From assembly GCA_964481835.1 (NCBI GenBank), contig CAYZTT010000001.1:9964-73963 (forward strand): a DNA stretch of 64,000 bases, written 5' to 3'. How positions within the stretch are numbered: the stretch's first letter is position 1; each line of letters opens with the position of its first letter. Shown piece by piece: positions 39,028-57,267 of the stretch. The position numbers and the translations under genes are program-made. The DNA is from Candidatus Woesearchaeota archaeon. Lineage in GTDB: Archaea; Nanobdellota; Nanobdellia; SCGC-AAA011-G17; PNOQ01. Under the pieces are notes generated by a model. It saw only the letters and a list, made by a program, of their open reading frames with translations, had not been told where the DNA came from and searched no databases.

Positions 39028-39873
39028 TTATTCTTCAATATCGTCAAGGACATTTCTCACTTTTTTTAGTTGCTCTTTTGATACATGCGTGTAAATTTGA
39101 GTAGTAGACAGATCCGAATGGCCAAGTAACTCCTGAATTATTCGTATATCTACTCCTGCATCTAGATTGTGGGTGGCAAAGGAGTGCCTTAGTTTGTGTG
39201 CAGTCACCTTTTTGCTTATTTTTGCCAATTTTGCGGTATTTGATATTATTTTTTGAACATTTCTTGCCGAAAGGTGATCTTTTTTCCCAGGAAAGAGATA
39301 TTGTTCTCTTTCGTCTATTGTTTGTATATATTTCTTAATTTCATGTGTTAGTTTCTCTGATAAGAAAAATGCCCTATCTTTTCCGCCTTTTCCAGATCTG
39401 ACCCACCCCATGCCATTTTCTAATTCAATATCCATGATCTTTAGGTTTACACATTCACTCACCCTCAACCCAGTGGAGTATAGTAGTCTCATAATCAATA
39501 GGGATTTTTTTGAAGGAGCTCTTTCAAACAATCTCCTTACTTCTTCTTTTGTTAGGAATATCGGTATTGACTTGGGGATTTTTGGAGTTTTTAGATTTAC
39601 TATACTCATCCCCATAACTTCATGGAAAAAGAACTTTAATGCCGCCTTCTTTACTGCGATGGATCTGGGAGCATGATCTGAGTCGGAAACTAAATATGCA
39701 AAATATTCTTTGATATCTTCTTCAAGAATTTGGGGAGGATGCCTATCTTCAGGAAGATTCTTATTTACATGATTTAGAAAAAGTTTGACATTTTGGACAT
39801 ATGATTCTCTTGTTCTTTGAGAGAACCCCCTTAATTTCATTTCAGTAACTAGCCTTTTTAGACAAATCCCCAT
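39028..39873 (-). CDS. Tyrosine site-specific recombinase (XerA/XerC/D-like integrase)
   Basis: N-terminal SAM-like core-binding domain. The catalytic residues are R (GLRVSE), K, HxxR (HKLRHSFAT), R and Y (LGHSDLSTTQIYTHV). 281 aa. Confidence 0.85.
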   Translation of the reverse strand: MGICLKRLVTEMKLRGFSQRTRESYVQNVKLFLNHVNKNLPEDRHPPQILEEDIKEYFAYLVSDSDHAPRSIAVKKAALKFFFHEVMGMSIVNLKTPKIPKSIPIFLTKEEVRRLFERAPSKKSLLIMRLLYSTGLRVSECVNLKIMDIELENGMGWVRSGKGGKDRAFFLSEKLTHEIKKYIQTIDEREQYLFPGKKDHLSARNVQKIISNTAKLAKISKKVTAHKLRHSFATHNLDAGVDIRIIQELLGHSDLSTTQIYTHVSKEQLKKVRNVLDDIEE

Positions 39874-41212: not shown

Positions 41213-41440
41213 TTACATATGTTTTTTCATATATTCATACCAAATGGCAACTAGGAATGGTACAAATGCAATTAGAATCCAATTTATTTTATGATACCAA
41301 GCCCCAAATACAACTAAAACAAATGTTATTAAGAATAATGCCAATGTTAAAGAATCAAAGCTTTTGTTCACTGTTTGGGCAGGCTTTTTAATTTTCCTTT
41401 TAGTTGACTTCTTTTTTGTAACCTTCTTTTTCTTGGGCAT
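41213..41440 (-). CDS. Small membrane protein with Lys-rich N-terminus
   Basis: MPKKKKVTKKKSTKRKIKKP followed by two TM helices. Confidence 0.35.
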   Translation of the reverse strand: MPKKKKVTKKKSTKRKIKKPAQTVNKSFDSLTLALFLITFVLVVFGAWYHKINWILIAFVPFLVAIWYEYMKKHM

Positions 41441-41540
41441 TAAATATCACCTATTAATTAATTTTTGAAATTTTAAGTATATAAATCTTATGTTTGAAAA
41501 GCAAAAAGTTTAATAACTAGTTTAGTTAAAAAGTTAAATA

Positions 41541-42185
41541 ATGGTTTTTAGATTGTTCAAAAAAAGACGCGATGTGGAAGAGAAACTGTCTGGTTTGCAC
41601 GATAGTCTGAATGATTCTTTTTCTAAAATTAAGGATGATATGGGGAGTGTTGGGGAGTGGATTAAACACTTCGATCAAACTAAAGAAACTCACCATAGTA
41701 AAATAGAGAATTTAGATACCCGATTGAGATCTGTTGAAGAATTCGTTATGAACCTTATAGAACAGTCTCCCGTCGAGGAAATGTCCAAACAGCTGTCCAA
41801 ACAAGGACAAACAGCTGTCCGTCCGAATCAAACGGATAGTGTGTCCAAACAGATGTTTGAACAGCCGTCCAAACAGCAAAAAGTTGTCCAAACGGATCTA
41901 GAGAGGGCATTAATTAGTTTGACAGCAATGGAAAGGGCATTAGTGTGGAGCCTTTTGAATACAGACATTCTATTAAGTTATGAGGATATGGGTAGGATTT
42001 TAGGCAAAGACCAATCTACAGTGAGAGGACAAATAAATAATATAAAAAGGAAGATTCCTGGGCTAATAGAGGAGAAAAGTGAGGACACAGGAAAGAAGAG
42101 ATACTATGTAAATGAGGGAAAGAAGAGGGATATATGGGTAAAATATACGGGTAAACGGGCAAAAAAGGTCGAAAGTGAGAGCTAA
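41541..42185 (+). CDS. Coiled-coil protein with internal SKQ repeats and C-terminal sigma-70-region-4/HTH_10-like DNA-binding domain
   Basis: N-terminal heptad-like region, (x-S-K-Q) x4 encoded by gtccaaacag repeats, then LTAMERALVWSLLN...LSYEDMGRILGKDQSTVRGQINNIKRKI. Confidence 0.45.
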   Translation: MVFRLFKKRRDVEEKLSGLHDSLNDSFSKIKDDMGSVGEWIKHFDQTKETHHSKIENLDTRLRSVEEFVMNLIEQSPVEEMSKQLSKQGQTAVRPNQTDSVSKQMFEQPSKQQKVVQTDLERALISLTAMERALVWSLLNTDILLSYEDMGRILGKDQSTVRGQINNIKRKIPGLIEEKSEDTGKKRYYVNEGKKRDIWVKYTGKRAKKVESES

Positions 42186-42260
42186 TTTTGAGTAATATTG
42201 ATTAATTTGGGGTATTTTAAGGAATAAATCAGGGCATTTATGTTAAAAGTGAGAGTAGAA

Positions 42261-43058
42261 TCAGATATAATGACGCAAATGGCCAGTTAACCGTGTTTGT
42301 GAGTGATCCTTCTCTCTGAGAGCTAGAAGATTTTCTAGCATTTTGAGCGTTCTAAACTCTTTTTTTATGGTTAAGTATACCTTTCTATTGGGAGATACAT
42401 TCTTTGTGAGAGGTATTTTCCTTAAAACAAGGTCGCTTATGTAATCTCTAACTGCACTTTGAGATATTAGGAGATCTTTTGCCAGATCAGCATATGTTAT
42501 GGGGGCCTTAAGTTCTTCTTCTAATCGATAGATGGCCATAAAAACCCTGAATTGTGCCTCTGTAAGGCTCAGAAACCTCGATTCTAGGTCCTCTTTAAGG
42601 GTTTGAACGTCATAATAATCTTTTAATCCTTCTGTCGGAGCAGTGTCTGTCTGTCGTCTTTCTGTCGGCAGGTTGTCGGCAGGTTGTCGGCGCAGGACCC
42701 CTTCATTTCCTATGGAACTTTCTTGGATTTTCGGCTTAGGAGGCTCAAAACCATTAAATTTGGGGGTTTTAGGGTTTTTGGGGGTTTTTGTCTCTGGTTC
42801 AGGCACTCTTTGCATGTGTAGAGATTGCTCTAACAAGACCTTAATCTCCTTTATTTCACTCTCAAGCCCTGAAATGCGCAAATCTAGCTCAGAAATAGAT
42901 TCTTTTACCTTTTGAAAGGACAATCTTACTTTACTTTGAAAATCCAATTTAACCCCAATGTAGAAATCTGTGTCGAATTTATAACAATTTATGTGTCGGA
43001 GCAGTGTCGTCTGTGTGTCGAAAGTGTGTCGAAGTGAGAGTATTCTTGTATTAGGCAC
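42261..43058 (-). CDS. Paralogous coiled-coil / low-complexity linker / HTH_10-like protein (non-ATG start likely)
   Basis: Same architecture as 41541-42185: coiled coil (ISELDLRISGLESEIKEIKVLLEQ), P/K/T-rich linker, and C-terminal LSLTEAQFRVFMAIY...ITYADLAKDLLISQSAVRDYISDLVLRKI. The ORF begins with GTG. It is convergent with its paralog. Confidence 0.4.
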   Translation of the reverse strand: MPNTRILSLRHTFDTQTTLLRHINCYKFDTDFYIGVKLDFQSKVRLSFQKVKESISELDLRISGLESEIKEIKVLLEQSLHMQRVPEPETKTPKNPKTPKFNGFEPPKPKIQESSIGNEGVLRRQPADNLPTERRQTDTAPTEGLKDYYDVQTLKEDLESRFLSLTEAQFRVFMAIYRLEEELKAPITYADLAKDLLISQSAVRDYISDLVLRKIPLTKNVSPNRKVYLTIKKEFRTLKMLENLLALREKDHSQTRLTGHLRHYI

Positions 43059-43100
43059 TATACGGAGTTATAGGTATTTTGTGAGAATACGCCTTGAGAA

Positions 43101-43640
43101 CTATAAATTCTGGGGTTTGACTTGGTTATTGTAGATATCGATGAATGAGGTGTGGTGGAGGTTTATCCCCGCAGATATAAAGGATTCTGCAATACCTTTT
43201 ATCAGTTCTTTTTCATTGAGATTCTCTGCATTGAATCTAAGGAGATTTGTGAGAGTGAGTGTACATAGGAACCCTTCATTTAGCTCTAGGCAAACACTTC
43301 TATTCCCTTCTTTTACCGTCGAGGATTCTAGATCGATATTAATGTTTCCCTTGGTGAGATTCCTTTCTTGTTTAGAAAATCCCCATGGCAAGAGCTCGTT
43401 AATGATGGCTTCTTCCATTGTCGAAGCCACTGTCTGTTTGTCGGCAATGCCCAAATTTATTACTTTTCCAAGGTATTTTGTAGACTTTTGTCGAGATTGT
43501 TTTTTCTTTTTGTTATATCTATTTTCTACAAGATATGCATATTCTTTTCCGTTGATAACTTTCTTCCTTATGAACATATTATTATTGTACAAACATAATT
43601 TATAAGAATTACCCATATACTGAAAACCTATCTGACTCAC
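43101..43640 (-). CDS. Hypothetical protein with basic N-terminal segment (FIRKKVINGKEYAYLVENRYNKKKKQSRQKSTKYLGKV)
   Basis: 179 aa with no assignable family. Its start overlaps the 3' end of the JAMM gene by ~30 nt. Confidence 0.3.
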   Translation of the reverse strand: MSQIGFQYMGNSYKLCLYNNNMFIRKKVINGKEYAYLVENRYNKKKKQSRQKSTKYLGKVINLGIADKQTVASTMEEAIINELLPWGFSKQERNLTKGNINIDLESSTVKEGNRSVCLELNEGFLCTLTLTNLLRFNAENLNEKELIKGIAESFISAGINLHHTSFIDIYNNQVKPQNL

Positions 43641-44130
43641 ACATTATTATCATTAGAGAATGGGGGTTTTTCTCCTTGCTAGAATTGAGTGTTATAAGAT
43701 CTTGCTGGGAGGCTATACATCTTCTAAAGGGGTGAGAATGTAATAAAATTATTGTGTCTTCTGAACAAGTCTTAAAGGTCACATGGTTAAAAGTTTGTTC
43801 AGTTATATCTGGTTGATATACTTCATTTATCGTATAGTCTCTACTTATCTCCCCTTTCAAACAAACCACCATCTCTACAGAGAGATCTTTGTTATAATAC
43901 TCTTGCAAATCATTATATGTGTCTTCTGTGAACATTATTGAGAATTCTTCAAGGACTATTGTTTTATTCTCTGCTAATTTTGATTCAGATATGCTCTCTA
44001 GTATGGGAAATATTGGATACCCCAATAATATGTACGAGGTAATCAAAAATAATAAGGCTATGGCTATAAACATTATAATAATTTTCCTCCATATGGAATC
44101 CCTTTCTTCTATTTGATTTTCTTCAATCAT
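43609..44130 (-). CDS. Membrane-anchored JAMM/MPN+ (JAB) metalloprotease-domain protein
   Basis: N-terminal TM helix (IIIMFIAIALLFLITSYILLGY). The C-terminal domain has the exact JAMM signature H-x-H-x7-S-x2-D (LLHSHPFRRCIASQQDL), with an upstream conserved Glu candidate (KGEISRD). Confidence 0.55.
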   Translation of the reverse strand: MIEENQIEERDSIWRKIIIMFIAIALLFLITSYILLGYPIFPILESISESKLAENKTIVLEEFSIMFTEDTYNDLQEYYNKDLSVEMVVCLKGEISRDYTINEVYQPDITEQTFNHVTFKTCSEDTIILLHSHPFRRCIASQQDLITLNSSKEKNPHSLMIIMCESDRFSVYG

Positions 44131-45020
44131 GCATGTAGATGTAGATGTAATTGTTTTGTTATTTTTCTAATGTGTTTCTTCCGGATATAGTGTAGTACTA
44201 TCCCTGCAAGTATAAGAATTGTTCCCCCCAGTAATATTCTAAAATCCAGGGTTTCATTTATGAACATTATTGCGAAGGCTATTGATGCGATAGGGGTTAC
44301 TAAGAGACTTATTATTGAAATTGTATCTGCATGTAATCTCTTTGCGCTATATCCAATTAACAAGAATGGAAGTGCGGTGCATAATACCCCCAATACGATT
44401 AAGAGAGGTATGTGGGGCAATATATTATTTCCTAGACCAAATATGAATACAAAGGGGACATAAAATAGTGTTGCAAAGAAAAAGAACCACATGATGGACC
44501 CTATTGAGTGTGTTTTCTCTTCAGATCTAAGGAAAACTAATAATAGTGCATAAAATAATGCGTTACCAAGAGATATCATATTCCCTATAAAAAATCCACT
44601 TTTGAAATTGAATGGATTTATGACAGATAACCCAATCAATGCTACAATAATTGCTAATTTTTGGTTGAACTTTAATTTTTCCTTTAGGAAAAAGAATGCA
44701 AAGATAGTTACAAAGACTACAGAAAAGGAGGAAATTAATATTACATTTGAAACTGGTGCATATGAAAGCGCATATATGAATGACCCTAAAGCTAATGCCT
44801 TTAACATTCCAATTGATATATAATTTGGCAGATCTTTTCTTTTTACTCTATATGCTTTTTTATCTAACATGGGCATTAAAATTGCTAGAAAGATAGATGC
44901 AAATAATAACCTAAAGAAAGTGATTGCCACAGGGTTTATGTCTGGCACAAGAACTTTAGTTATTACACCTACAAATCCTACCAGGATCCCTGCAAGGATT
45001 ATATTGAACTTGGATTTCAT
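44127..45020 (-). CDS. EamA/DMT-superfamily transporter (10 TM)
   Basis: Two EamA-like repeats. Start trimmed to MKSKFNIILAGILVGF to avoid overlap with the divergent nth-like gene. Confidence 0.65.
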   Translation of the reverse strand: MKSKFNIILAGILVGFVGVITKVLVPDINPVAITFFRLLFASIFLAILMPMLDKKAYRVKRKDLPNYISIGMLKALALGSFIYALSYAPVSNVILISSFSVVFVTIFAFFFLKEKLKFNQKLAIIVALIGLSVINPFNFKSGFFIGNMISLGNALFYALLLVFLRSEEKTHSIGSIMWFFFFATLFYVPFVFIFGLGNNILPHIPLLIVLGVLCTALPFLLIGYSAKRLHADTISIISLLVTPIASIAFAIMFINETLDFRILLGGTILILAGIVLHYIRKKHIRKITKQLHLHLHA

Positions 45021-45069
45021 TATTAGCTTTAGGGTTAAGTTTTTAAAAATGTTTGCCCAAACTAATTGT

Positions 45070-45678
45070 ATGAATAAAAAGAAAGCTGTGCAGCAATTGG
45101 GTGAATTGAGAAAGAATACTAAAAATATGCGATTGACTGCAGAAAAATGGGATAGGCCATGGAAAACTCTGATTGCCATATTGTTGTCTGCTAGGACCCG
45201 TGATGAAATGACTATCCCTGTAGCTAGAGAGTTGTTTAAGAGATATTCTAGTTTGAATAAACTCAGTAATGCAAAATTAAGGGATGTTGAGAAAATAATC
45301 AGACCGATAAATTTTTACAAAAATAAATCCAAAAATGTTTTAGGTTGCTCAAAAATGTTATTGGAGACCCATGGGGGAAAGGTCCCTAAGAATTTTGAGG
45401 AGTTGTTACATTTGCCTGGTGTTGGTAGGAAGACTGCCAATGTATTTTTGTCTGAATATGGAGGTGCAGCAATCGGTGTGGACACACACGTGTTTTACAT
45501 TTCCAAGAAACTGAGTTGGAGTAATGGAAAAACCCCTGAGAAGGTAGAGGGCGACCTTAAGAGATTGTTTCCTAAGAACTACTGGACCAAGGTAAACCCA
45601 GTATTGGTAAGATTCGGAAAAACGTATACAAGTAGAAAGGTGAAAGATAAATTGCTTCTTAAGATTAAAAATTTATGA
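45070..45678 (+). CDS. nth: HhH-GPD DNA glycosylase, endonuclease III-like, lacking the C-terminal Fe-S loop
   Basis: Helix-hairpin-helix LPGVGRKTANVFL with the catalytic Lys, and VDTHV with the catalytic Asp. There is no C-terminal Cys cluster. The start is uncertain (45049 or 45070). Confidence 0.7.
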   Translation: MNKKKAVQQLGELRKNTKNMRLTAEKWDRPWKTLIAILLSARTRDEMTIPVARELFKRYSSLNKLSNAKLRDVEKIIRPINFYKNKSKNVLGCSKMLLETHGGKVPKNFEELLHLPGVGRKTANVFLSEYGGAAIGVDTHVFYISKKLSWSNGKTPEKVEGDLKRLFPKNYWTKVNPVLVRFGKTYTSRKVKDKLLLKIKNL

Positions 45679-49914: not shown

Positions 49915-50178
49915 TTAGATTATGTCTTCTTCGGCAACAACTATAAAATCACCGATTGCGATTACTGCGCTAAAAGGAATTAATAATCGTCCTTCGTCTG
50001 TTCTTTCCAAATCTAAATTAGAAGCAAGTGATGTTGGACTTTTCAGTTCAAGCTGCAATAGTTCTCCTGTTTTTGTTTCAAAATGAATATTTCCTAAATC
50101 TCCAAATTTCTTTCCAGTCTTACTAACTATTGTTTTTCCAAGAAGATGTTTTGAATATCTTTTATCATTATTTGACAT
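49915..50178 (-). CDS. PRC-barrel domain protein
   Basis: 87 aa. LLGKTIVSKTGKKFGDLGNIHFETKTGELLQL is the typical PRC-barrel core. Confidence 0.45.
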   Translation of the reverse strand: MSNNDKRYSKHLLGKTIVSKTGKKFGDLGNIHFETKTGELLQLELKSPTSLASNLDLERTDEGRLLIPFSAVIAIGDFIVVAEEDII

Positions 50179-50540: not shown

Positions 50541-51003
50541 ATCAATATAATAAGAGTTTTTATTTATAAGGTTTTTTATGGCTGAATAAATCGGGGACTC
50601 CCACCCCTATTTCTATTGGAATTATTGTATTTATGGATGTGATGGGTATTTCATATGGAATTATTTTTTAAGGTATTTTTTGTATGGGGTTTTACGTGTG
50701 TTTAAGTGTATTTTTATTGATTTTTAGTAAAAATTTTTATGTTTCAAATTTATGGTTTAGAAGTCTTGAAAGTGAAGAATTTGATTATATATTATATATT
50801 ATATTTATAAGTTTTATTATTATATATATATTATATTATTATATATATATTTTATAGTGTTACTATTGAAAAGTTTCTATAGGAAGAAGGGGTGTACCCA
50901 TCTGCAAACATGAATCAAGAAAGTTCCATTGGAAATATAGGTCCGTGTCTCTATTTTTTAGTATAGCAATATTTATAATCATAATTTATCAGTCGTTTTT
51001 AAG
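50541..51003. other. Predicted chromosomal replication origin (oriC) with ORB-like repeats and AT-rich unwinding element
   Basis: A 460-bp non-coding region sits immediately upstream of orc1/cdc6. It holds three copies of a (t)tcyatTGGAAt core: 50611-50624 tttctattggaatt, 50651-50663 ttcatatggaatt, and the palindromic 50923-50936 gttccattggaaat. A (ta)n-type AT tract lies at ~50784-50858, and a G-string ggggactcccacccc at 50594-50608. Confidence 0.6.
50971..50978 (+). promoter_or_regulatory. TATA-box-like element for orc1/cdc6 (leaderless spacing)
   Basis: atttataa lies ~26 nt upstream of the ATG at 51004. Confidence 0.3.
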
Positions 51004-52221
51004 ATGACTAAATCAGATATTAATGAATTTTTTGAAGATTATTTGAGTAAGGACGGGTTATTTAGGGATAAGAAAGTATTGCAATCTAGTTACACTCCAG
51101 ATAACATACCTCACAGGGATGCAGAGATAAAAGAAATTGCGAGTATGATGGCGCCTGCACTTAGGGGAGAAAAACCTTCTAATTTATTTTTATATGGGAA
51201 AACTGGGACTGGGAAGACTCTTTCTGTATTGCATGTTGTTGAAAAGTTAAGGAAAATTGCTAAGCAAAAGAATATTAATATGATTATACACACTTTAAAT
51301 TGTAAATTAAAAAAAGTTGCAGATACTGAATATAGGTTGATTTCTAACTTGGCTAGACATTTTGGAGAAGATGTACCTGTTACGGGGTTGGCAACTGATG
51401 AAATCTATAAAAGATTTATAGATAGTATAGATAGTATAGATAATAAAAACCAAAATATAATTTTAGTATTGGATGAAATAGATCAATTAGTTAAAAAAGC
51501 AGGAGATGAGATATTATATAATTTAACAAGGTTAAATTCTGAGCTGAAAAATACACAAATTACATTTGTAGGAATTTCTAATGATTTAAGATTTGCAAAT
51601 GATTTGGATCCAAGGGTAAAATCTTCATTAACTGAAGAAGATATTAATTTCCCATCTTACAATGCACTCCAGTTACAAGACATTTTGAATGAACGAGCAA
51701 AAAATGCATTCAAAGAAGGAAGAATAGAACAAGGCGCAATAGAAAAGTGTGCTGCATTAGCGGCTAGGGAGCATGGAGATGCTAGGAGGGCATTAGATTT
51801 ACTTAGGGTTGCTGGAGAACTCTCTGAGAGGAAAGGATCGGACAAATTATTGATAAATCATATTGATGAAGCAGAAGATAAAATCGAGAGAGACTTAGTT
51901 TCAGATGTAGTGAGTACCTTACCAAAACAATCGCAATTAGTTCTTTTAGCGGCTTTTAGATTATATGGGAAGGATAATTCTAAAATATTTACTGGAGATG
52001 TATATGATTTGTATAAAACTTTATCTTCAAATGTAGGCTTAAAACCATTAACACAGAGAAGGATGTCTGATTTGATTGCAGAATTGGATATGTTGGGAAT
52101 AATAAATGCCAAAGTAATTAGCAAAGGCAGGTATGGTAGGACAAGAGAAATTAGTATGTCCATCCCAGATACAGAGGTTCCAGAATTGATGGGTGCATTA
52201 ACAAAATGGCTGAATCTGTAA
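51004..52221 (+). CDS. cdc6: Orc1/Cdc6 replication initiator
   Basis: AAA+ Walker A YGKTGTGKT, Walker B VLDEID, a C-terminal winged-helix domain, 405 aa. Confidence 0.9.
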   Translation: MTKSDINEFFEDYLSKDGLFRDKKVLQSSYTPDNIPHRDAEIKEIASMMAPALRGEKPSNLFLYGKTGTGKTLSVLHVVEKLRKIAKQKNINMIIHTLNCKLKKVADTEYRLISNLARHFGEDVPVTGLATDEIYKRFIDSIDSIDNKNQNIILVLDEIDQLVKKAGDEILYNLTRLNSELKNTQITFVGISNDLRFANDLDPRVKSSLTEEDINFPSYNALQLQDILNERAKNAFKEGRIEQGAIEKCAALAAREHGDARRALDLLRVAGELSERKGSDKLLINHIDEAEDKIERDLVSDVVSTLPKQSQLVLLAAFRLYGKDNSKIFTGDVYDLYKTLSSNVGLKPLTQRRMSDLIAELDMLGIINAKVISKGRYGRTREISMSIPDTEVPELMGALTKWLNL

Positions 52222-53699
52222 AAGGTATCATTAAGATATTTTTAGATAGGGGATATTTGATCGATCCTGGGTTAATAGATGGGATTGATCTAGATAGCGA
52301 ATTTATTGATAAAAATTTAGAATCAAATGACAGTGGCGAATTATTAATGTTTAATAAAACAATGATGGCTAAACTTCTTGCAAAAAATACCAGTGTCGAA
52401 TTAGAAAAACCATTAATGGAAAAAGATAATGGTCTAAGGCCGTTTAAGATAGTAAAATCTTTTGATAAGAAACCTAGGAAGGTCCAAGTTCAAGATTTTG
52501 TAACACATTATGTAAATCGTTACAACACCTTAAGAACAATACTTCAAAATAGGAATGCATTAATTGCTCCCCTATCTATAAGCAGGATTTTAACAAAGAG
52601 GGAGAGGGATAATGTATCTACTATAGGATTAGTTTATGGAAAGAGGTATACAAAAAATAATAATTTAATTTTAAGATTAGAGGATAATACCGGAACAATA
52701 AATGTGTTAATTAATAGTAATAAACAAGAACTTTTTGAGAAATGCAAAGACATAGTGTTGGATGAGGCAATTGGAGTAAAAGGATCCAATGGAGAAAAAA
52801 TAATTTTTGCTGATGAAGTTTTCTTCCCTGATGTGGTTTTAGGGGGAAAAGAGATGAAAAAATCTGAGAAGGAAGAATATGCCGCCTTCATATCTGATTT
52901 GCATGTTGGTTCTAAGATGTTCTTAGAGGATCAATTTTTAGATTTTATAAAATGGATAAATGGCGAGACTGGTTCTTCTGAACAAAAGGAGATATCTAAA
53001 TCTGTAAAATATCTTTTTGTTATTGGGGATATTGTGGATGGAATTGGCATATATCCCAATCAAGAAGGGGAGTTAAATGTTTTCGATTTGGAGGAACAAT
53101 ACAAATTATGTGCAGAGTTATTGGGAAAGATTCGTAAGGACGTTCAAATTTTTATTTGCCCTGGAAATCATGATGCAATTCGGTTGGCAGAACCTCAACC
53201 TATATTTGATAAGAATATGGCTGAAAGTTTATATAACTTGCAGAATGCAACATTGGTATCTAATCCGGCTACAATAAATATAGGGTCCTATGAAGGATTT
53301 TCTGGGTTTGATGTATTGTTGTATCATGGATATTCATTTGACTATTATATTGACCAAATAGAAAGTATTAGGTTTGGAGGGGGGTATGATAGGGGAGATC
53401 TAGTGATGAAATTTTTACTCCAGAAGAGGCATTTGGCTCCTTCCCATGGATCTACACCCATAATTATTGATACCGATGAAGATAATTTGATTATAGATAA
53501 AGTGCCTGATTTTTTTGCTTCAGGGCATATCCATAAAACTAGTATAAGCAATTATGGAAAAACGACTATGATATCTGGGAGTTGTTGGCAGAGTAGAACA
53601 ACATTTCAGGATAAAGTAGGACACCATCCTGAACCGGGAAGGGTCCCAATTATTAATCTTAAGACTAGGGATGTAAAACTGATGAAATTTTGTGACTAA
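52206..53699 (+). CDS. DNA polymerase II (PolD) small subunit DP1, calcineurin-like phosphoesterase/exonuclease
   Basis: N-terminal OB region, then phosphoesterase motifs GDIVDG, GNHD and GH.H. Its start overlaps the cdc6 stop. Confidence 0.85.
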   Translation: MAESVKGIIKIFLDRGYLIDPGLIDGIDLDSEFIDKNLESNDSGELLMFNKTMMAKLLAKNTSVELEKPLMEKDNGLRPFKIVKSFDKKPRKVQVQDFVTHYVNRYNTLRTILQNRNALIAPLSISRILTKRERDNVSTIGLVYGKRYTKNNNLILRLEDNTGTINVLINSNKQELFEKCKDIVLDEAIGVKGSNGEKIIFADEVFFPDVVLGGKEMKKSEKEEYAAFISDLHVGSKMFLEDQFLDFIKWINGETGSSEQKEISKSVKYLFVIGDIVDGIGIYPNQEGELNVFDLEEQYKLCAELLGKIRKDVQIFICPGNHDAIRLAEPQPIFDKNMAESLYNLQNATLVSNPATINIGSYEGFSGFDVLLYHGYSFDYYIDQIESIRFGGGYDRGDLVMKFLLQKRHLAPSHGSTPIIIDTDEDNLIIDKVPDFFASGHIHKTSISNYGKTTMISGSCWQSRTTFQDKVGHHPEPGRVPIINLKTRDVKLMKFCD

Positions 53700-56600
53700 A
53701 ATGGAAGATAAATCAATGGAGAGATACTTTAAGAGTTTTGACAAATATATTGAGAAATCTTATTCCTTGGCCGACCAAGCTAGAGCCAGGGGATTGGACC
53801 CTGTCAATCAGGTTGAAATTCCACTTGCAAAGAATATGGCAGAGAGGGTCGAAGGACTAATTAGTGTTGCTGCCCCTCAGTTAGGCGGCTCAGGTGTTAG
53901 TGAGAGGATACTTGAATTGGAGAAGGAACATGGGACCCAACATCCGATTATAGCCTTTTTCTTGGCAGAAGAGGTGGCAAAACAAAAATTCTGCAAGTTT
54001 GATAATGAAAAAGATGCCATAGAAATTGGCTTGAGAGTGGGGTTGGCTTACATTACTAATGGGGTTGTGGCTTCTCCTCTGGAAGGATTTGTTAGACTAG
54101 AGCTAAAAGATACGATGGATGGAAAAGGAAAATATTTTGCTCTTTATTTTGGGGGGCCGATACGTAGTGCAGGTACTACTGCCACCTGTTTTTTCGTTGC
54201 GTGTGCAGATTATGTGCGGAGAAAAATGGGATATCTTCCTTACGACCCTACTGAAGATGAAATTAGTAGAACTTTTTCTGAATTAGATTTTTTTCATGAT
54301 AGAATTACAAATTTACAATATATGCCATCCCAAGAAGAGGCAACATATATTACAAAAAATCTCCCCCTTCAAATTGATGGAGATGGTAGTGAGAGATTGG
54401 AGGTTCCAAATTATAAGGATCTCCCTAGAGTAAAATCAAATATACTTAGGAATGGTTTTTGTCTGGTTTATGGAGAATCTTTAGCTTTGAAATGGAAAAA
54501 ATTTTGGGGGAAATTTTCTAAGTGGTGTGATCGTGTAGACATGGAAGACTGGAAATTTGTAGAAGGTTTTGTAAAGCTTCAAGAAAAGATTCGAGCTAAG
54601 AGCACAATAAAAAAGGACTCGGGAGAGGATAAGGTTTTGCCAGATTTTGGATTTATTAAAGATCTTGTTGCAGGGAGACCCGTGTTTGGACACCCATTAA
54701 AACCTGGAGGATTTAGATTGAGGTATGGTAGGTCTAGGATGTCGGGGTTTTCTGTTGATGGATTGCATCCTGCTACGATGGTTGTACTGGACGGGTATGT
54801 GGCTTCTGGAACCCAATTAAAACCTGAGAGGCCTAAGAAGGGGAATACCGTAATTTCTTGTGATTCTATTGAGGGACCAATTGTGCGGTTGAAAAATGGA
54901 AACGTAATTCGTTTAGAGGATGAGGAAACTGCGAAAAAACATAATTTGGATGTTGAAGAGGTCTTGTATCTTGGAGATATATTGGTAGATTATGGGGATT
55001 TTTTAGATAGGGGATCTATGCTTTACCCTCCAGGATATTGTGAAGAATGGTGGTTTAAAGAGTTAGAATCTAAGAATAAATCCCCGGAGGAGATTAATAA
55101 ATTAACTGGGATATCCTTGCCCAACCTGAAGGAAACATTTAGTAACCCAATGCAAACTAAATTATCTGCTGAAGATTGCTTTAAACTTTCTAAAGAATTG
55201 AAGATACCTTTACATCCAAAATATACTTTTCACTGGAAGGGGATCAAGGTTAAAGAATTTTTAGTTCTAGTTCACTGGTTATCCCGGTCTGTTTTGAAAA
55301 AAGAGGAGAAAAAAGTAATTTTGCCATTAGATTATGAGGTGGAAGGATATGAATCTCCAAAAAGAGTTCTTGAACTATTGGGGGTGCCTCATTCTATTGT
55401 GCACCGAGAACATATATTGGTTGAAGGAGAGTGGTCTATTGCCCTTATGGCAAATTTAGGATTATTTGATAAGGAGTCTAAATTTAAGGAAATGGTATCC
55501 TATACCTCAGATAAGAAAAATGTTTTGGGGATTGTGAATAAATTTTCGGATATAGCCATCAAAGATAAATCAGGGATATTTATTGGAGCTAGAATGGGAA
55601 GACCAGAGAAAGCAAAGATGAGGAAATTAACTGGAAGCCCACATTCTTTATTTCCTGTTGGTGAAGAAGGGGGGAGACTTAGATCTTTTCAATCTGCAAA
55701 AGAAATGGGGAGAATAATATCGGATTTCCCTACATATATTTGTAATGGGTGTGGTAAACAGGGGGCCTATAATGTCTGCCCATATTGTGGATCTTTAGAT
55801 ATGAAGAAGATGTTTTATTGTCCGAGATGTGATAAATCAACTGAAGAAGAGAAATGCTCTAAACATCCTCTTGAAAATGGACAAACCGAACATCTAGATA
55901 ACCAGGTGTATAGTCGTAAGGAGATTGACATAAGAGAATATCTAGATTTTGCCATGAAAAAACTAGAGCTTGGGGAACTCCCCCCTTTAGTGAAGGGAGT
56001 TAGGGGAACCTCCAATAAAGAGCACATACCTGAAAATTTAGTTAAGGGGATACTAAGATCGATACACGATATTTATGTTAATAAGGATGGGACGACTAGG
56101 TATGATATGACTGAGATGGCGTTAACACATTTTAGACCATCTGAGATAAGAACCCCTGTAGAAAAACTTAAGGAGTTGGGATATGAACATGATATATATG
56201 GGGAGGAATTGACAAGAGATGATCAAATATTAGAATTAAAGGCACAGGATATTGTTTTGCCTGCATCTCCAGATTCTCCGGATGAGGGGGCAGATGTAAT
56301 TTTATTTAAAGTAACTAAGTTTATTGATGATCTACTTGAGAAATTTTATGGTGTTGAAAAATTCTACAATTTGAAAACTAGATTGGATTTAGTGGGGCAT
56401 ATGGCTATAGGTCTGAGCCCCCATACTTGTGCAGGAATTGTGTGTAGAATTATTGGGTTTTCTAAAATGCAAGGATTAGTTGCACACCCTTATCTACATT
56501 CTATTATGCGTAGAGATTGCGATGGGGATGAAGCAGGCGTTATGATGATGATGGATGCACTCCTTAATTTTTCTAGGAAACTGCTTGGGGGACATAGGGG

Positions 56601-57267
56601 GGCAACACAAGATGAACCACTAGTTTTAACATCTCATCTATTGCCTACTGAGGTTGACGATCAAGTGTATAGTATGGGTATTGCTTGGGAATACCCCCTA
56701 GAATTTTATGAGGCATGTGAAAAATATAAATATCCCTGGGATGTAAAAATAGATACTGTCCAAACAAATATAGATAAAGGAAAACCTTACTCTGGGTTTG
56801 GGTTTACACATAATACTAGTGATATTAATTCTGGGGTGTTATGTAGTTCGTATAAATTATTGCCAACAATGAAAGAGAAGGTAGATGGCCAGATGTATCT
56901 GGCCACCAAACTAAGATCTGCGGACAGAGACGACGTTGCAAGGTTAGTTATCGAGAGACATTTTATTAGGGATTTGAAGGGAAACCTGCGTAAATTTAGT
57001 ATGCAACAATTTAGGTGTGTTGATTGTAATGAGAAGTTTAGAAGACCTCCTTTAGTTGGCAAATGTACTAAATGTGGGGGGAGATTGTTATTTACCATTT
57101 CAGAAGGATCTGTAACTAAATACTTATTGCATATTCTTTTTTTAGCTAAACAATATAATTTGCCCCATTACTCGCAACAATCCATTGAGATATTGAATCA
57201 GAGAGTGGAAAGTGTTTTTGGGAAAGACCCAGAAAAACAAGAAGACTTGGGAAAATGGTTTAGCTAG
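53692..57267 (+). CDS. DNA polymerase II (PolD) large subunit DP2
   Basis: 1191 aa with the conserved DP2 zinc fingers (CNGCGKQGAYNVCPYCG; CVDCNEKFRRPPLVGKCTKCGG) and a catalytic double-psi barrel region. No intein is present. Its start overlaps the DP1 stop. Confidence 0.9.
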   Translation: MTKMEDKSMERYFKSFDKYIEKSYSLADQARARGLDPVNQVEIPLAKNMAERVEGLISVAAPQLGGSGVSERILELEKEHGTQHPIIAFFLAEEVAKQKFCKFDNEKDAIEIGLRVGLAYITNGVVASPLEGFVRLELKDTMDGKGKYFALYFGGPIRSAGTTATCFFVACADYVRRKMGYLPYDPTEDEISRTFSELDFFHDRITNLQYMPSQEEATYITKNLPLQIDGDGSERLEVPNYKDLPRVKSNILRNGFCLVYGESLALKWKKFWGKFSKWCDRVDMEDWKFVEGFVKLQEKIRAKSTIKKDSGEDKVLPDFGFIKDLVAGRPVFGHPLKPGGFRLRYGRSRMSGFSVDGLHPATMVVLDGYVASGTQLKPERPKKGNTVISCDSIEGPIVRLKNGNVIRLEDEETAKKHNLDVEEVLYLGDILVDYGDFLDRGSMLYPPGYCEEWWFKELESKNKSPEEINKLTGISLPNLKETFSNPMQTKLSAEDCFKLSKELKIPLHPKYTFHWKGIKVKEFLVLVHWLSRSVLKKEEKKVILPLDYEVEGYESPKRVLELLGVPHSIVHREHILVEGEWSIALMANLGLFDKESKFKEMVSYTSDKKNVLGIVNKFSDIAIKDKSGIFIGARMGRPEKAKMRKLTGSPHSLFPVGEEGGRLRSFQSAKEMGRIISDFPTYICNGCGKQGAYNVCPYCGSLDMKKMFYCPRCDKSTEEEKCSKHPLENGQTEHLDNQVYSRKEIDIREYLDFAMKKLELGELPPLVKGVRGTSNKEHIPENLVKGILRSIHDIYVNKDGTTRYDMTEMALTHFRPSEIRTPVEKLKELGYEHDIYGEELTRDDQILELKAQDIVLPASPDSPDEGADVILFKVTKFIDDLLEKFYGVEKFYNLKTRLDLVGHMAIGLSPHTCAGIVCRIIGFSKMQGLVAHPYLHSIMRRDCDGDEAGVMMMMDALLNFSRKLLGGHRGATQDEPLVLTSHLLPTEVDDQVYSMGIAWEYPLEFYEACEKYKYPWDVKIDTVQTNIDKGKPYSGFGFTHNTSDINSGVLCSSYKLLPTMKEKVDGQMYLATKLRSADRDDVARLVIERHFIRDLKGNLRKFSMQQFRCVDCNEKFRRPPLVGKCTKCGGRLLFTISEGSVTKYLLHILFLAKQYNLPHYSQQSIEILNQRVESVFGKDPEKQEDLGKWFS

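What the first reader, a model, noticed from the sequence alone, without database searches (positions are those of the whole stretch)
41541..43058. Convergent paralogous coiled-coil/HTH regulators with DNA-level tandem and dispersed repeats
Two genes facing each other encode the same architecture: a coiled coil, a low-complexity linker, and a sigma-70-region-4/HTH_10-like DNA-binding domain. The linker of the first is encoded by four to five copies of gtccaaacag (giving SKQ repeats). The second contains ttgtcggcagg tandem copies (42663-42692). It also has a 15-nt direct repeat, tgtcggagcagtgtc, present at both 42634-42648 and 42993-43007, read in different frames at the two sites and therefore a DNA-level rather than protein-level repeat. 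The second gene appears to start with GTG. Repeat-bearing regulator pairs of this kind are typical of mobile-element or virus control regions and could be phase- or recombination-variable.
Basis: seen in the sequence. Interest (0 to 1): 0.5.

Follow-up and report, generated by a model that had tools for sequence, protein, structure and literature searches.

The report
Origin-type DNA sites inside regulator genes
Two facing regulator genes, 8 kb from the replication origin of a tiny (DPANN) archaeon, carry conserved DNA sites in their flexible-linker coding sequence: a copy of the origin's initiator-binding box and arrays of short repeats, so the DNA sites, not the protein, shape the odd linker sequence.

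Summary
The repeats are real, within 1 nt of the stated coordinates, and they act at the DNA level. The mobile-element and phase-variation reading is not supported.

- **Genes:** 41541-42185 (+) and 42261-42947 (-) are paralogs. Each has a coiled coil, a disordered linker and a MarR-like winged helix. The second gene starts at TTG 42947, not at the GTG.
- **Conservation:** the convergent pair recurs in about 54 of 62 related loci. The gene-2 family has about 700 clusters at 50% identity.
- **Position:** the pair lies 1.7-8.5 kb from orc1/cdc6 wherever the flanks reach that far. In this window oriC is at 50541-51003.
- **Origin box:** the gene-2 linker holds an origin recognition box (ORB), TTCCATAGGAAATGAAGGGGT at 42697-42717. 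It matches this genome's own oriC boxes and is fixed at synonymous sites across 56 genes.
- **Gene-2 repeats:** CGACA boxes are phased every 11 nt and read in all three frames. The same boxes recur around the gene's TATA box.
- **Gene-1 repeats:** the palindromic box TGTYYRAACA occurs only in gene 1 and its promoter.

Best reading: these are cis-elements embedded in coding DNA, an ORB for Orc1/Cdc6 plus operator arrays for the two encoded proteins. DNA-level constraint is shown. Who binds each element is inferred.

The parts
41541..42185 (+). Gene 1: 214-aa protein with an N-terminal long helix (coiled coil), a disordered linker (residues ~76-117) and a C-terminal winged helix-turn-helix
   Evidence: ORF. 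37 homologs. AF2 model with helix 2-75, linker pLDDT <50 and wHTH pLDDT >90. Foldseek finds MarR/MepR/AbfR2-like folds.
41782..41895 (+). Gene-1 linker box array. TGTCCAAACAG-type boxes (general form TGT[TC][TC][AG]AACA, a TGT..ACA palindrome) are read as S-K-Q in one frame and V-Q-T in another.
   Evidence: Across 47 distinct loci the box occurs 145 times in gene 1, 39 times in the 300 nt upstream of gene 1, and once in the other 258 kb. Codons are fixed: SKQ Ser is TCC in 37/41 cases against a 7% background.
41478..41500 (+). Putative gene-1 promoter: TATA-like TATATAAAT (41478-41486) followed by the degenerate box TGTTTGAAAA (41491-41500)
   Evidence: Read from the sequence. The box-like element is conserved only in the closest loci. 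Distant loci carry clear TGTTTAAACA boxes upstream of gene 1. Promoter function is inferred.
42261..42947 (-). Gene 2: 228-aa paralog with TTG start at 42945-42947, coiled coil, disordered linker (residues ~48-111) and MarR-like winged helix
   Evidence: Homologs are 221-228 aa. ATG sits at the equivalent position in L001, L003, L005, L007 and L011. AF2 model. Foldseek. The family has 697 representatives at 50% clustering.
42697..42717 (-). Origin-recognition-box (ORB)-type element TTCCATAGGAAATGAAGGGGT. It encodes S-I-G-N-E-G-V in the disordered linker.
   Evidence: It has the same pattern as this genome's oriC ORBs and as Pyrococcus ORB1 (PMC1904270). Synonymous sites are invariant in 56 genes: Ser TCC 55/55, Gly GGA 55/55, Gly GGG 56/56. 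It is one of only 3 strict-pattern hits in the 64-kb window. In 445 kb of related loci, 66 of 78 hits fall in gene 2 and 11 at oriC.
42633..42689 (-). Gene-2 linker array: five CGACA boxes (TGTCG on the + strand at 42633, 42652, 42663, 42674, 42685), spaced 19,11,11,11 nt and read in all three frames as R-Q, D and P-T. It includes a CGACAGACAGACA remnant of the (GACA)n tract.
   Evidence: The 11-nt phasing is conserved in 11 related loci. Distant relatives carry (GACA)3-12 here, with Asp always GAC (98/98).
42970..43031 (-). Gene-2 promoter array: five CGACAC boxes. Four lie upstream of a TATA-like TTATAAAT (42977-42984) at 11-nt phasing. One lies between the TATA box and the start region.
   Evidence: The array is conserved in all 11 close loci. 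It is non-coding in most of them because the upstream frame is closed. Operator function is inferred.
43032..43062 (-). Conserved non-coding elements just upstream of the promoter boxes: CTCTCACTT (43032-43040) and ATAGTGCCTAA (43052-43062).
   Evidence: Nearly invariant in the 12 aligned upstream regions. Function unknown.
43419..43443 (-). Outlying box pair CGACA-(A/G)ACAGACAG-N5-TTCGACA inside the upstream 179-aa gene, read in two different frames
   Evidence: Conserved at -386/-366 in 7 close loci.
50541..51003 (.). Context: the chromosomal origin oriC. An AT-rich unwinding region (~50780-50856) is flanked by inverted ORBs at 50603-50621 (-), 50648-50660 (-), 50874-50893 (+) and 50924-50936 (+).
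   Evidence: GC is 0.24. The same layout sits next to cdc6 in L065 and L067.
51004..52221 (+). Context: the orc1/cdc6 initiator gene, followed by PolD DP1 (52206-53699) and DP2 (53692-57267)
   Evidence: Pfam Cdc6_C 6.7e-28 and Cdc6_lid 3.3e-23. DP1 and DP2.

Best explanation
The locus is a conserved, origin-proximal cluster of DNA sites written into the coding sequence of two paralogous DNA-binding proteins. Both proteins have an intrinsically disordered linker between a coiled coil and a winged helix. That linker tolerates almost any sequence, so its DNA has been taken over by cis-elements. The odd peptide repeats (SKQ/VQT, RQ/D/PT, TDRQ) are by-products of those elements.

1. **ORB in gene 2.** Gene 2's linker carries one origin recognition box (two in many relatives). 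It is of the same type as the boxes flanking the unwinding region of this genome's own oriC. It is most likely bound by Orc1/Cdc6.
2. **Box arrays.** Each gene carries arrays of its own short box at about one-helical-turn spacing. Gene 2 has asymmetric CGACA(C)/GACA boxes at 11-12 nt. Gene 1 has the palindromic TGTYYRAACA box at about 12 nt. The same box type recurs in that gene's own non-coding promoter. These arrays are most likely operators for the encoded proteins.
3. **Proposed action.** The proteins would oligomerise through the coiled coil. They would then autoregulate by occluding the TATA/start region. They may also bridge the promoter and intragenic arrays into a larger complex next to the Orc1-bound box.

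**Shown:** nucleotide-level constraint, ORB-type identity of the sequence, box specificity for gene and promoter, origin proximity, and the protein architecture.
**Inferred:** which protein binds which element, and the consequence for regulation or chromosome architecture.
For: **Nucleotide-level selection**
- In 56 distinct gene-2 homologs, down to 25% amino-acid identity, the ORB codons are fixed: Ser TCC 55/55 (background 12%), Gly GGA 55/55, Gly GGG 56/56, Asp GAC 42/42 and 40/40 (background 20%).
- The control is the invariant protein motif LSQSSIRDY. It uses 5-6 Ser codons, and its Asp is GAT 41 / GAC 8.
- T-S-T is ACT-TCG-ACA in 27/28 cases (TCG background 4%). T-D is ACA-GAC in 98/98 cases.
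- In the close family, codon sameness peaks in the linker (0.88-0.95) against 0.6-0.8 in the folded domain.
- The 11-nt boxes are read in three frames and recur in non-coding promoter DNA.
- The conserved 'motif' lies in a region AF2 predicts as disordered.

**ORB identity**
- The element shares the bipartite pattern of this genome's oriC boxes and of Pyrococcus ORB1: a TTCC..GGAAAT dyad, a variable 3 nt, then GGGGT.
- A strict pattern hits 78 times in 445 kb from 66 loci. Of these, 66 are in gene 2 on the sense strand, 11 are at orc1-adjacent origins and 1 is elsewhere. Shuffles give 0.2.
- Only 3 hits occur in the 64-kb window: two at oriC and one in gene 2.
- Intragenic ORB clusters near an origin have a precedent. 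The Pyrococcus dp1 cluster is bound by Cdc6 in vivo.

**Origin proximity**
- orc1/cdc6 lies 1.7-8.5 kb from gene 2, in the same relative orientation, in the window, in L016, L017, L020, L046, L048, L056 and L059, and in L063, L065 and L067.

**Own-box specificity**
- The gene-1 box occurs 145 times in gene 1, 39 times in the 300 nt upstream of it (29 of 47 loci) and once in the other 258 kb.
- Gene-2 boxes reach 3.2 per kb in gene 2 and in its upstream 300 nt, against 0.08 per kb elsewhere. None lie on gene 2's antisense strand.
- Five boxes bracket a TATA-like element ahead of gene 2.

**Proteins**
- Both are MarR-like winged helices with invariant recognition helices.
Against: - No binding data exist. 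Orc1/Cdc6 binding to the intragenic box is inferred from sequence alone.
- The ORB could instead be bound by the gene-2 protein.
- The intragenic ORBs are in direct orientation and have no adjacent AT-rich unwinding region, so they do not form a canonical origin.
- Promoter CGACAC arrays occur only in the window's sub-family (12 loci). Distant gene-2 promoters are plain TATA boxes, so autoregulation through promoter boxes is not universal for gene 2.
- Repeat arrays can keep uniform codons through slippage or conversion without any selection. This weakens the codon argument for the (GACA)n tracts, but not for the single-copy ORB.
- Sense-strand conservation alone cannot separate a DNA site from an RNA site.
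Confidence: 0.55

Rival explanations
1. Protein-level explanation. The linker motifs (SxGNxGV, TDRQ, TPTH/TSTH, SKQ/VQT) are functional short linear peptide motifs or plain low complexity. Uniform codons would then arise from replication slippage and gene conversion inside the repeats.
For: The motifs are conserved as peptides across the family: 169 of 200 members have S[IT]GNxGV. In distant relatives the box spacings are multiples of 3. Repeat copy number does change by whole units between near-identical loci.
Against: - The single-copy ORB has fixed synonymous sites, while an invariant motif in the folded domain does not.
- In the window's family the boxes are phased every 11 nt, are read in three frames, and recur in non-coding promoter DNA.
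- The only variable part of the 'peptide motif' is the 3-nt spacer of the bipartite ORB.
- The region is predicted disordered.
- The same box types occur in non-coding DNA upstream of gene 1.
Confidence: 0.07
2. RNA-level element. The conserved nucleotides act in the mRNA, for example as binding sites for an RNA-binding protein or small RNA, or as a translation or stability signal.
For: All gene-2 boxes and the ORB lie on the sense strand only. CA-rich, unstructured stretches such as (GACA)n could serve as single-stranded RNA sites. The linker RNA is less structured than shuffled controls (z = +1.77).
Against: - There is no Rfam match even at E <= 1.
- There is no stable fold.
- The same bipartite pattern otherwise marks only non-transcribed origin DNA next to orc1.
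- Four of the five promoter boxes lie upstream of the TATA-like element.
- The gene-1 box is a palindrome, as expected for a dimeric DNA-binding protein.
Confidence: 0.1
3. One reading: a mobile-element or virus control region whose repeats make the regulators phase-variable or recombination-variable.
For: An 11-nt tandem repeat (2.6 copies) inside an ORF would shift the frame if its copy number changed. Relatives carry (GACA)n tracts of up to 8-12 units. A tyrosine recombinase gene lies 2.4 kb away, at 39028-39873.
Against: - Synteny with oriC, orc1 and polD is conserved across divergent lineages.
- There are no homologs in phage, plasmid or IMG/VR collections.
- All 56 distinct genes are in frame, and box number and position are conserved among 11 close loci.
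- No mobile-element hallmark genes are adjacent.
Confidence: 0.04
4. A second or vestigial replication origin lies inside the gene pair.
For: ORB-type elements (one or two) lie next to repeat arrays close to orc1.
Against: - The ORBs are in direct, not inverted, orientation.
- There is no AT-rich unwinding element. GC at 42-44 kb is 0.367, against 0.24 for the oriC intergenic region.
- A canonical oriC already lies 8 kb away.
Confidence: 0.05
5. An overlapping antisense gene constrains the nucleotides.
For: Antisense stop-free stretches cover the ORB with a median of 90 codons and a range of 44-157. In the window the ORF 42643-42915 (+) is 90 aa.
Against: - Dual coding does not predict invariance at all three codon positions together with a free 3-nt spacer.
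- Repeats such as (TGTC)n lack stop codons by composition.
- The open length varies more than three-fold between loci.
Confidence: 0.03

Closest known systems
Archaeal origin recognition boxes (ORB / mini-ORB) bound by Orc1/Cdc6, including the intragenic ORB cluster in Pyrococcus dp1 (PMC1904270)
   Same: - Bipartite sequence: a TTCC..GGAAAT dyad plus a G-string. 14 of 16 bases match the Pyrococcus ORB1 core.
- It matches the ORBs of this genome's own oriC.
- It lies near orc1 and oriC.
- ORBs inside a coding gene next to an origin have a precedent.
   Different: - It sits in the disordered-linker coding sequence of a winged-helix regulator.
- It is conserved at synonymous sites across a family of about 700 clusters.
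- The orientation is direct, there is no unwinding element, and it lies 1.7-8.5 kb from oriC.
- Binding by Orc1 has not been shown.
ParR/parC of plasmid R1: two clusters of five 11-bp iterons around the par promoter (from memory, not checked here)
   Same: - There are two clusters of five boxes at 11-nt phasing, one of them around the core promoter.
- The geometry implies cooperative binding on one face of the helix and autoregulation.
   Different: - The proteins are winged helices with a coiled coil, not ribbon-helix-helix.
- The locus is chromosomal and archaeal.
- The second cluster lies inside the ORF.
- No partner NTPase was seen among the neighbours examined.
ParB/parS, where a parS site lies inside the spo0J/parB coding sequence near oriC in Bacillus subtilis (from memory)
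   Same: The locus is origin-proximal, and the presumed cognate sites of a DNA-binding protein are embedded in its own gene.
   Different: There is no ParB fold and no ParA. The sites are arrays of short boxes rather than a single 16-bp palindrome. The resemblance is an analogy only.
MarR-family winged-helix autoregulators
   Same: The C-terminal fold matches (Foldseek E about 1e-4). The gene-1 box is a palindrome and lies in its own promoter.
   Different: - Pfam MarR models score below threshold.
- Dimerisation would go through a separate N-terminal coiled coil joined by a 40-65-residue disordered linker.
- The operators lie inside the ORF.
Simple-sequence contingency loci, such as tetranucleotide (GACA)n tracts in Haemophilus phase-variable genes (from memory)
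   Same: Relatives carry (GACA)n tracts inside an ORF.
   Different: All copies are in frame and the tract position is conserved. The observed variation is in 12-nt units. The genes are core, origin-proximal genes.

Membership tests
Archaeal ORB (Orc1/Cdc6 origin recognition box) | Dyad core with conserved TTCC ... GAA(A) motifs | tested here: met
   TTCCATAGGAAAT at 42705-42717 (-). It matches the Pyrococcus ORB core 'TTCC'/'GAA' and this genome's oriC boxes.
Archaeal ORB (Orc1/Cdc6 origin recognition box) | G-rich string on one side of the dyad (long-ORB form) | tested here: met
   GGGGT lies 3 nt after GGAAAT. It is invariant in 56 genes (GGG 56/56), while the 3-nt spacer varies.
Archaeal ORB (Orc1/Cdc6 origin recognition box) | Located at or next to an orc1/cdc6-linked origin | tested here: met
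   The element lies 1.7-8.5 kb from orc1 in the window and in 10 other loci. The strict pattern is otherwise found almost only at oriC.
Archaeal ORB (Orc1/Cdc6 origin recognition box) | Inverted copies flanking an AT-rich unwinding element | tested here: not met
   There is a single copy, or two direct copies about 43-45 nt apart, and no AT-rich element. So it is an ORB-type site, not an origin.
Archaeal ORB (Orc1/Cdc6 origin recognition box) | Bound by Orc1/Cdc6 | not testable with these tools
   This needs EMSA, footprinting or ChIP.
MarR-type winged helix-turn-helix regulators | Winged-helix fold (H-H-H plus beta wing) | tested here: met
   AF2 pLDDT >90 for the C-terminal domains. Foldseek top hits are MepR, MarR, ST1889 and AbfR2.
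MarR-type winged helix-turn-helix regulators | Sequence-profile membership (Pfam MarR/MarR_2 at or above the gathering score) | tested here: not met
   MarR_2 scores 15.7 bits against a 27-bit cut-off, and HTH_24 scores 15.9 against 21.9.
   Sigma70_r4_2 scores 13.1 bits against 25.7 in gene 1. There is no HTH_10 or GerE hit. Fold hits are winged helices.
Phase-variable simple-sequence contingency locus | Copy-number differences that shift the reading frame between strains | tested here: not met
   All 56 distinct genes are in frame. L027 and L031 differ by one 12-nt unit. Read-level heterogeneity could not be tested.
Mobile-element / viral control region | Homologs or context in viruses or plasmids, with adjacent mobile-element genes | tested here: not met
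   There are no hits in phages, plasmids or IMG/VR. The neighbours are housekeeping genes such as LonB, ArgRS, EamA, PRC-barrel, orc1 and PolD.
Iteron/centromere systems (ParR-parC-like) | Helically phased direct repeats around the promoter | tested here: met
   Five CGACAC boxes spaced 11,11,11,23 nt bracket the TATA-like element.
Iteron/centromere systems (ParR-parC-like) | Adjacent partition NTPase (ParA/ParM-type) | tested here: not met
   None was found among the neighbours scanned with Pfam. Several small neighbours have no Pfam match.

The most novel reading that the evidence does not exclude
The two coiled-coil winged-helix proteins, their intragenic and promoter box arrays, and the embedded Orc1/Cdc6 box form a dedicated origin-proximal nucleoprotein complex in Nanobdellota (Woesearchaeales/Pacearchaeales). 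This complex controls replication initiation or origin positioning and segregation. It would be a functional analogue of parS-ParB or of the initiator-titrating datA locus, built from unrelated parts and encoded inside the genes of its own components.
Probability: 0.2. Interest if true: 0.85.

Novelty: new variant of a known kind. Interest (0 to 1): 0.7.

Why it matters
- **A clean case of one DNA stretch serving two purposes.** Binding sites, including an initiator box identical in type to those at the origin, are embedded in the coding sequence of a disordered protein linker. They are kept fixed at synonymous sites across a large, deeply diverged archaeal clade. The case comes with its own internal control.
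- **Unexplained linker conservation may have this cause elsewhere.** Conserved "motifs" in disordered regions can be shadows of DNA elements. This matters most in small, gene-dense genomes.
- **It gives a handle on replication control in uncultivated archaea.** It names two conserved origin-neighbour proteins and a defined set of DNA sites. These can be tested directly in vitro for interplay with Orc1/Cdc6 in DPANN archaea.
- **It corrects annotation.** The gene-2 start is TTG, and gene callers have sometimes produced a long form that runs through the promoter boxes.

Tried and rejected
- **Family libraries.** Pfam, NCBIfam and PHROGs scans of both proteins gave only sub-threshold helix-turn-helix hits.
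- **Structured RNA.** Rfam found nothing at the gathering threshold on the whole window, nor at E <= 1 on 41400-43200. The linker mRNA folds less well than shuffled controls.
- **Mobile element or virus.** tblastn against the phage and plasmid collections and an IMG/VR scan found no relatives.
- **Phase variation.** No out-of-frame alleles occur among 56 distinct genes.
- **Second origin.** There is no AT-rich element and the ORBs are in direct orientation.
- **ORB in gene 1.** None was found with the strict pattern.
- **CGACA arrays at oriC itself.** None are present.
- **Loose ORB pattern.** TCCANNGGAAAT with one mismatch is not enriched window-wide (11 hits against 9.3 expected). Only the full bipartite pattern is specific.
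- **Nanobdellota preprint.** It lists a single-copy core winged-helix regulator, OG0000296. I could not establish whether that is this family.
- **Promoter/terminator scanner.** It was not used because it models bacterial sigma-70 promoters.
Full report
**1.

The region holds two convergent ORFs, 41541-42185 (+, 214 aa) and 42261-43058 (-, 265 aa from a GTG).
- GTCCAAAC occurs five times, at 41783, 41795, 41843, 41867 and 41886.
- An 11-nt tandem repeat, TGTCGGCAGGT, lies at 42663-42691.
- The 15-mer TGTCGGAGCAGTGTC occurs exactly twice in the window, at 42633 and 42994.

The underlying unit is the pentamer TGTCG, which is CGACA on the gene-2 sense strand. It occurs 25 times on both strands of the 64-kb window. 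Ten copies form two five-box clusters with nearly the same spacing. One is at 42633, 42652, 42663, 42674 and 42685. The other is at 42971, 42994, 43005, 43016 and 43027.

**2. Genes and proteins**

Most gene-2 homologs are 221-228 aa. In related loci the position matching window 42947 (TTG) is ATG. The upstream frame is closed in most of them. Gene 2 is therefore 42261-42947. The second TGTCG cluster is promoter DNA, not coding sequence.

AlphaFold2 models give both proteins the same architecture:
- an N-terminal long helix;
- a disordered linker with pLDDT below 50;
- a confident C-terminal winged helix with pLDDT above 90.

The closest solved folds are MarR-family and related archaeal regulators. 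Profile-profile comparison shows the two winged helices are homologous (97% probability, E 6e-11). Pairwise BLASTP is weak (E 4e-4). Pfam, NCBIfam and PHROGs give only sub-threshold hits. The "paralogous coiled-coil/HTH" description is right. The sigma-70 region 4 / HTH_10 label is not.

**3. Distribution and context**

Homologs come from Woesearchaeota, Pacearchaeota and unclassified DPANN archaea. An exhaustive profile search finds 697 representatives at 50% clustering. I fetched 62 related loci. The convergent gene-2/gene-1 pair is present in about 54 of them, including loci with only 25-35% identity.

The window itself contains a canonical archaeal origin region.
- orc1/cdc6 lies at 51004-52221, followed by PolD DP1 and DP2.
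- Upstream of orc1 is a 463-nt intergenic region with GC 0.24.
- That region has an AT-rich stretch flanked by inverted origin recognition boxes.

Between this oriC and the pair lie a PRC-barrel gene, LonB, ArgRS, an EamA transporter and several unannotated genes.

In distant loci with 10-kb flanks the order is PolD-DP2, DP1, Cdc6 | oriC | PRC-barrel, one or more further genes (two small ones in L065, one in L067, eight including an Lhr-type helicase in L063), gene 2, gene 1. Cdc6 lies 1.7-8.5 kb from gene 2. Seven more loci have orc1 within the 4-kb flank. No relatives exist in phage, plasmid or IMG/VR collections. This is a core chromosomal neighbour of the origin, not a mobile element.

**4. 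The linker "motifs" are nucleic-acid elements**

Alignment of the gene-2 family shows that the invariant linker residues are exactly those encoded by CGACA in the three frames:
- CGA-CAx gives R-Q or R-H;
- xxC-GAC-Axx gives D;
- xCG-ACA gives P/S/T-T.

In 11 close loci the boxes keep their 11-nt phasing and position in two places. Four or five lie around a TATA-like element ahead of the start. Three to seven lie in the linker. A further pair lies inside the upstream gene.

Across about 50 distinct loci the linker carries an invariant nucleotide string:

TCC-A[TC]A-GGA-AAT-nnn-GGG-GTT-nCn-ACA-GAC-AGA-CAG-ACA...

A codon test with an internal control is decisive.

| Position | Codon use | Background |
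|---|---|---|
| Ser in the element | TCC 55/55 | 12% |
| First Gly | GGA 55/55 | 46% |
| Second Gly | GGG 56/56 | 27% |
| Asp (two positions) | GAC 42/42 and 40/40 | 20% |
| Gln | CAG 39/42 | 21% |
| Control motif LSQSSIRDY, Ser | 5-6 different codons | n/a |
| Control motif LSQSSIRDY, Asp | GAT 41, GAC 8 | n/a |

Other boxes behave the same way. T-S-T is ACT-TCG-ACA in 27 of 28 cases, against a TCG background of 4%. T-D is ACA-GAC in 98 of 98 cases. In the close family, codon sameness peaks in the linker at 0.88-0.95. It is 0.6-0.8 in the more conserved folded domain. The conserved peptide lies in a region predicted to be disordered.

**5. The invariant string is an origin recognition box**

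On the sense strand the window's element reads GAAAGTTCCATAGGAAATGAAGGGGTCC.
- The proximal oriC box of the same genome reads GAAAGTTCCATTGGAAATATAGGTCC.
- The boxes flanking the unwinding region read TTCCAATAGAAATAGGGGT and TTTCTATAGGAAGAAGGGGT.
- Pyrococcus ORB1, taken from the methods of PMC1904270, reads TTCCAGTGGAAATGAAACTCTGGGGGGT when reverse-complemented.

The conservation pattern follows the bipartite ORB, not the peptide. The dyad and the G-string are fixed. The 3 nt between them vary in both base and amino acid.

A strict pattern, T[CT]C[CT]A-N2-3-G[AG]AA-N2-7-GGGG, has three hits in the window: two at oriC and one in gene 2. In 445 kb from 66 loci it has 78 hits. Of these, 66 are in gene 2 on the sense strand, 11 are in orc1-adjacent intergenic regions, and one is elsewhere. 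Shuffles give 0.2. Many distant relatives carry two tandem ORBs about 43-45 nt apart. The first encodes VPQEIEGLK. The same Pyrococcus paper reports an ORB cluster inside the dp1 gene beside oriC that is bound by Cdc6 in vivo. An intragenic ORB near an origin therefore has a precedent.

**6. Each paralog has its own box, in its own gene and promoter**

*Gene 1.* Its linker is a run of roughly 12-nt units, cTGT[TC]CAAACAg. These are read as V-Q-T or S-K-Q depending on frame, and they form TGT..ACA palindromes. The 10-bp box TGT[TC][TC][AG]AACA occurs 145 times in gene 1. It occurs 39 times in the 300 nt upstream of gene 1, in 29 of 47 loci. It occurs once in the remaining 258 kb. Some promoters carry arrays of it. 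L049 has five 19-nt repeats containing TGTTTTAAACA.

*Gene 2.* Its boxes, CGACA[CG] and GACAGACA, are 40-80-fold denser in gene 2's sense strand than elsewhere. CGACA[CG] is equally dense in the upstream 300 nt, and GACAGACA is about 17-fold enriched there. Neither occurs on gene 2's antisense strand. Distant relatives replace the 11-nt CGACA array with (GACA)3-12 after the ORB. Before the ORB they have ACT-YCR-ACA boxes spaced 9, 12 or 18 nt apart. Promoter CGACAC arrays are confined to the window's sub-family.

**7. Mechanism**

*Shown:*
- nucleotide-level constraint;
- ORB-type identity of the sequence;
- box specificity for gene and promoter;
- one-helical-turn spacing;
- origin proximity;
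- the protein architecture.

*Inferred, with my estimates:*
- Orc1/Cdc6 binds the intragenic ORB (about 0.65).
- Each winged-helix protein binds its own boxes (about 0.45-0.5). The palindromic gene-1 box suits a symmetric dimer. The asymmetric gene-2 boxes suit head-to-tail arrays.
- Binding around the TATA box gives autoregulation.
- The coiled coils could bridge the promoter and intragenic arrays beside the Orc1-bound site.

The disordered linker is the one part of the gene where such sites can be written without harming the protein. That explains the strange peptide repeats.

**8. Rivals**

- **Protein-level motifs with slippage-driven codon uniformity.** This fails on the single-copy ORB, on the three-frame reading and on the non-coding copies.
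- **RNA element.** It is not formally excluded because the elements are sense-strand only. It has no Rfam match and no fold. It also does not explain why the same pattern marks origin DNA.
- **Phase variation or mobile-element control.** Conserved synteny, in-frame alleles and the absence of viral or plasmid relatives all argue against it.
- **A second origin.** This is unlikely, because the ORBs are direct and there is no AT-rich element.
- **An overlapping antisense gene.** Stop-free antisense stretches have a median of 90 codons. This does not predict the observed pattern.

**9. Novelty and verdict**

ORBs, operator arrays and MarR-like regulators are all known kinds. What I could not find described is the combination (literature searches):
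- an ORB and helically phased operator-like boxes embedded in the linker coding sequence of an origin-neighbour regulator pair;
- both fixed at synonymous sites across a clade-wide family.

I rate it a new variant of a known kind, with interest 0.7.

Noticed in passing
window 50541-51003 (with 51004-57267): This looks like the chromosomal replication origin. An AT-rich stretch (~50780-50856) is flanked by inverted ORBs at 50603-50621 (-), 50648-50660 (-), 50874-50893 (+) and 50924-50936 (+). It lies directly upstream of orc1/cdc6, which is followed by PolD DP1 and DP2.
   Followed up: yes
window 49915-50178 (-); L063/L064 2176-2436, L065 8939-9199, L066 596-856, L067 8860-9120: A small PRC-barrel protein gene (86-87 aa) is the conserved first or second gene on the other side of oriC from orc1, between the origin and the regulator pair. 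PRC-barrel proteins have been linked to archaeal cell division (from memory), so the whole origin flank may form a functional module.
   Followed up: partly
window 43032-43062 (-): Two nearly invariant non-coding elements, CTCTCACTT and ATAGTGCCTAA, lie just upstream of the promoter CGACAC boxes in all 12 close loci. The second contains the GTG that creates the spurious long ORF. Function unknown.
   Followed up: partly
window 43419-43443 (-), inside ORF 43101-43640: A miniature copy of the gene-2 element set, CGACA-(A/G)ACAGACAG-N5-TTCGACA, lies inside the upstream 179-aa gene, which has no Pfam match. It is read in two frames and is conserved at the same relative position in 7 close loci.
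   Followed up: partly
L049 (about 130 nt upstream of gene 1) and L031, L040, L041, L058: Upstream of gene 1, some distant loci carry tandem arrays of the gene-1 box. L049 has five 19-nt repeats, AATGTTTTAAACAACAAAG. These are much more elaborate than in the window.
   Followed up: partly
L027 vs L031; L039 vs L042/L043: Near-identical loci differ by whole repeat units in the gene-2 linker, one 12-nt ACAGACAAACCA unit or a duplicated TPTH block. The arrays expand and contract but stay in frame.
   Followed up: partly
window and L001-L011, promoter array to linker array: The distance from the first promoter box to the first linker box is 319-351 nt. In all 12 loci it falls within 3 nt of a multiple of 11. 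This may mean the two arrays keep the same helical face, or it may reflect shared ancestry. It was computed by hand from the positions (WIN row) and has not been tested statistically.
   Followed up: no
L063/L064 1-1556: The orc1/cdc6 gene next to the pair in these loci contains an intein with a LAGLIDADG homing endonuclease domain (Pfam Intein_splicing, LAGLIDADG_3).
   Followed up: no
window 39028-39873 (-): A 281-aa tyrosine recombinase (Phage_integrase 1.3e-45 with a SAM-like N-terminal domain) lies 1.7 kb from gene 1, with no other mobile-element genes nearby. It may be the chromosomal XerA-type resolvase. A similar gene also lies near the pair in L065.
   Followed up: no
window 44127-45179 (-) and 44869-45678 (+): The mechanically listed ORFs for the EamA transporter and the HhH-GPD glycosylase overlap by about 300 nt on opposite strands. 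The Pfam matches start well inside both ORFs, so one or both real starts are probably further downstream.
   Followed up: no
gene-2 start region, window 42945-42956 (-): GGGGT sits 4 nt ahead of the TTG/ATG start (GGGGTTAAA-TTG) in most close loci. It could pair with the 16S 3' end as a Shine-Dalgarno-like site. The same GGGGT(T) is also the ORB G-string, and in distant loci 'GGGGTTAAAA' follows the first intragenic ORB.
   Followed up: no
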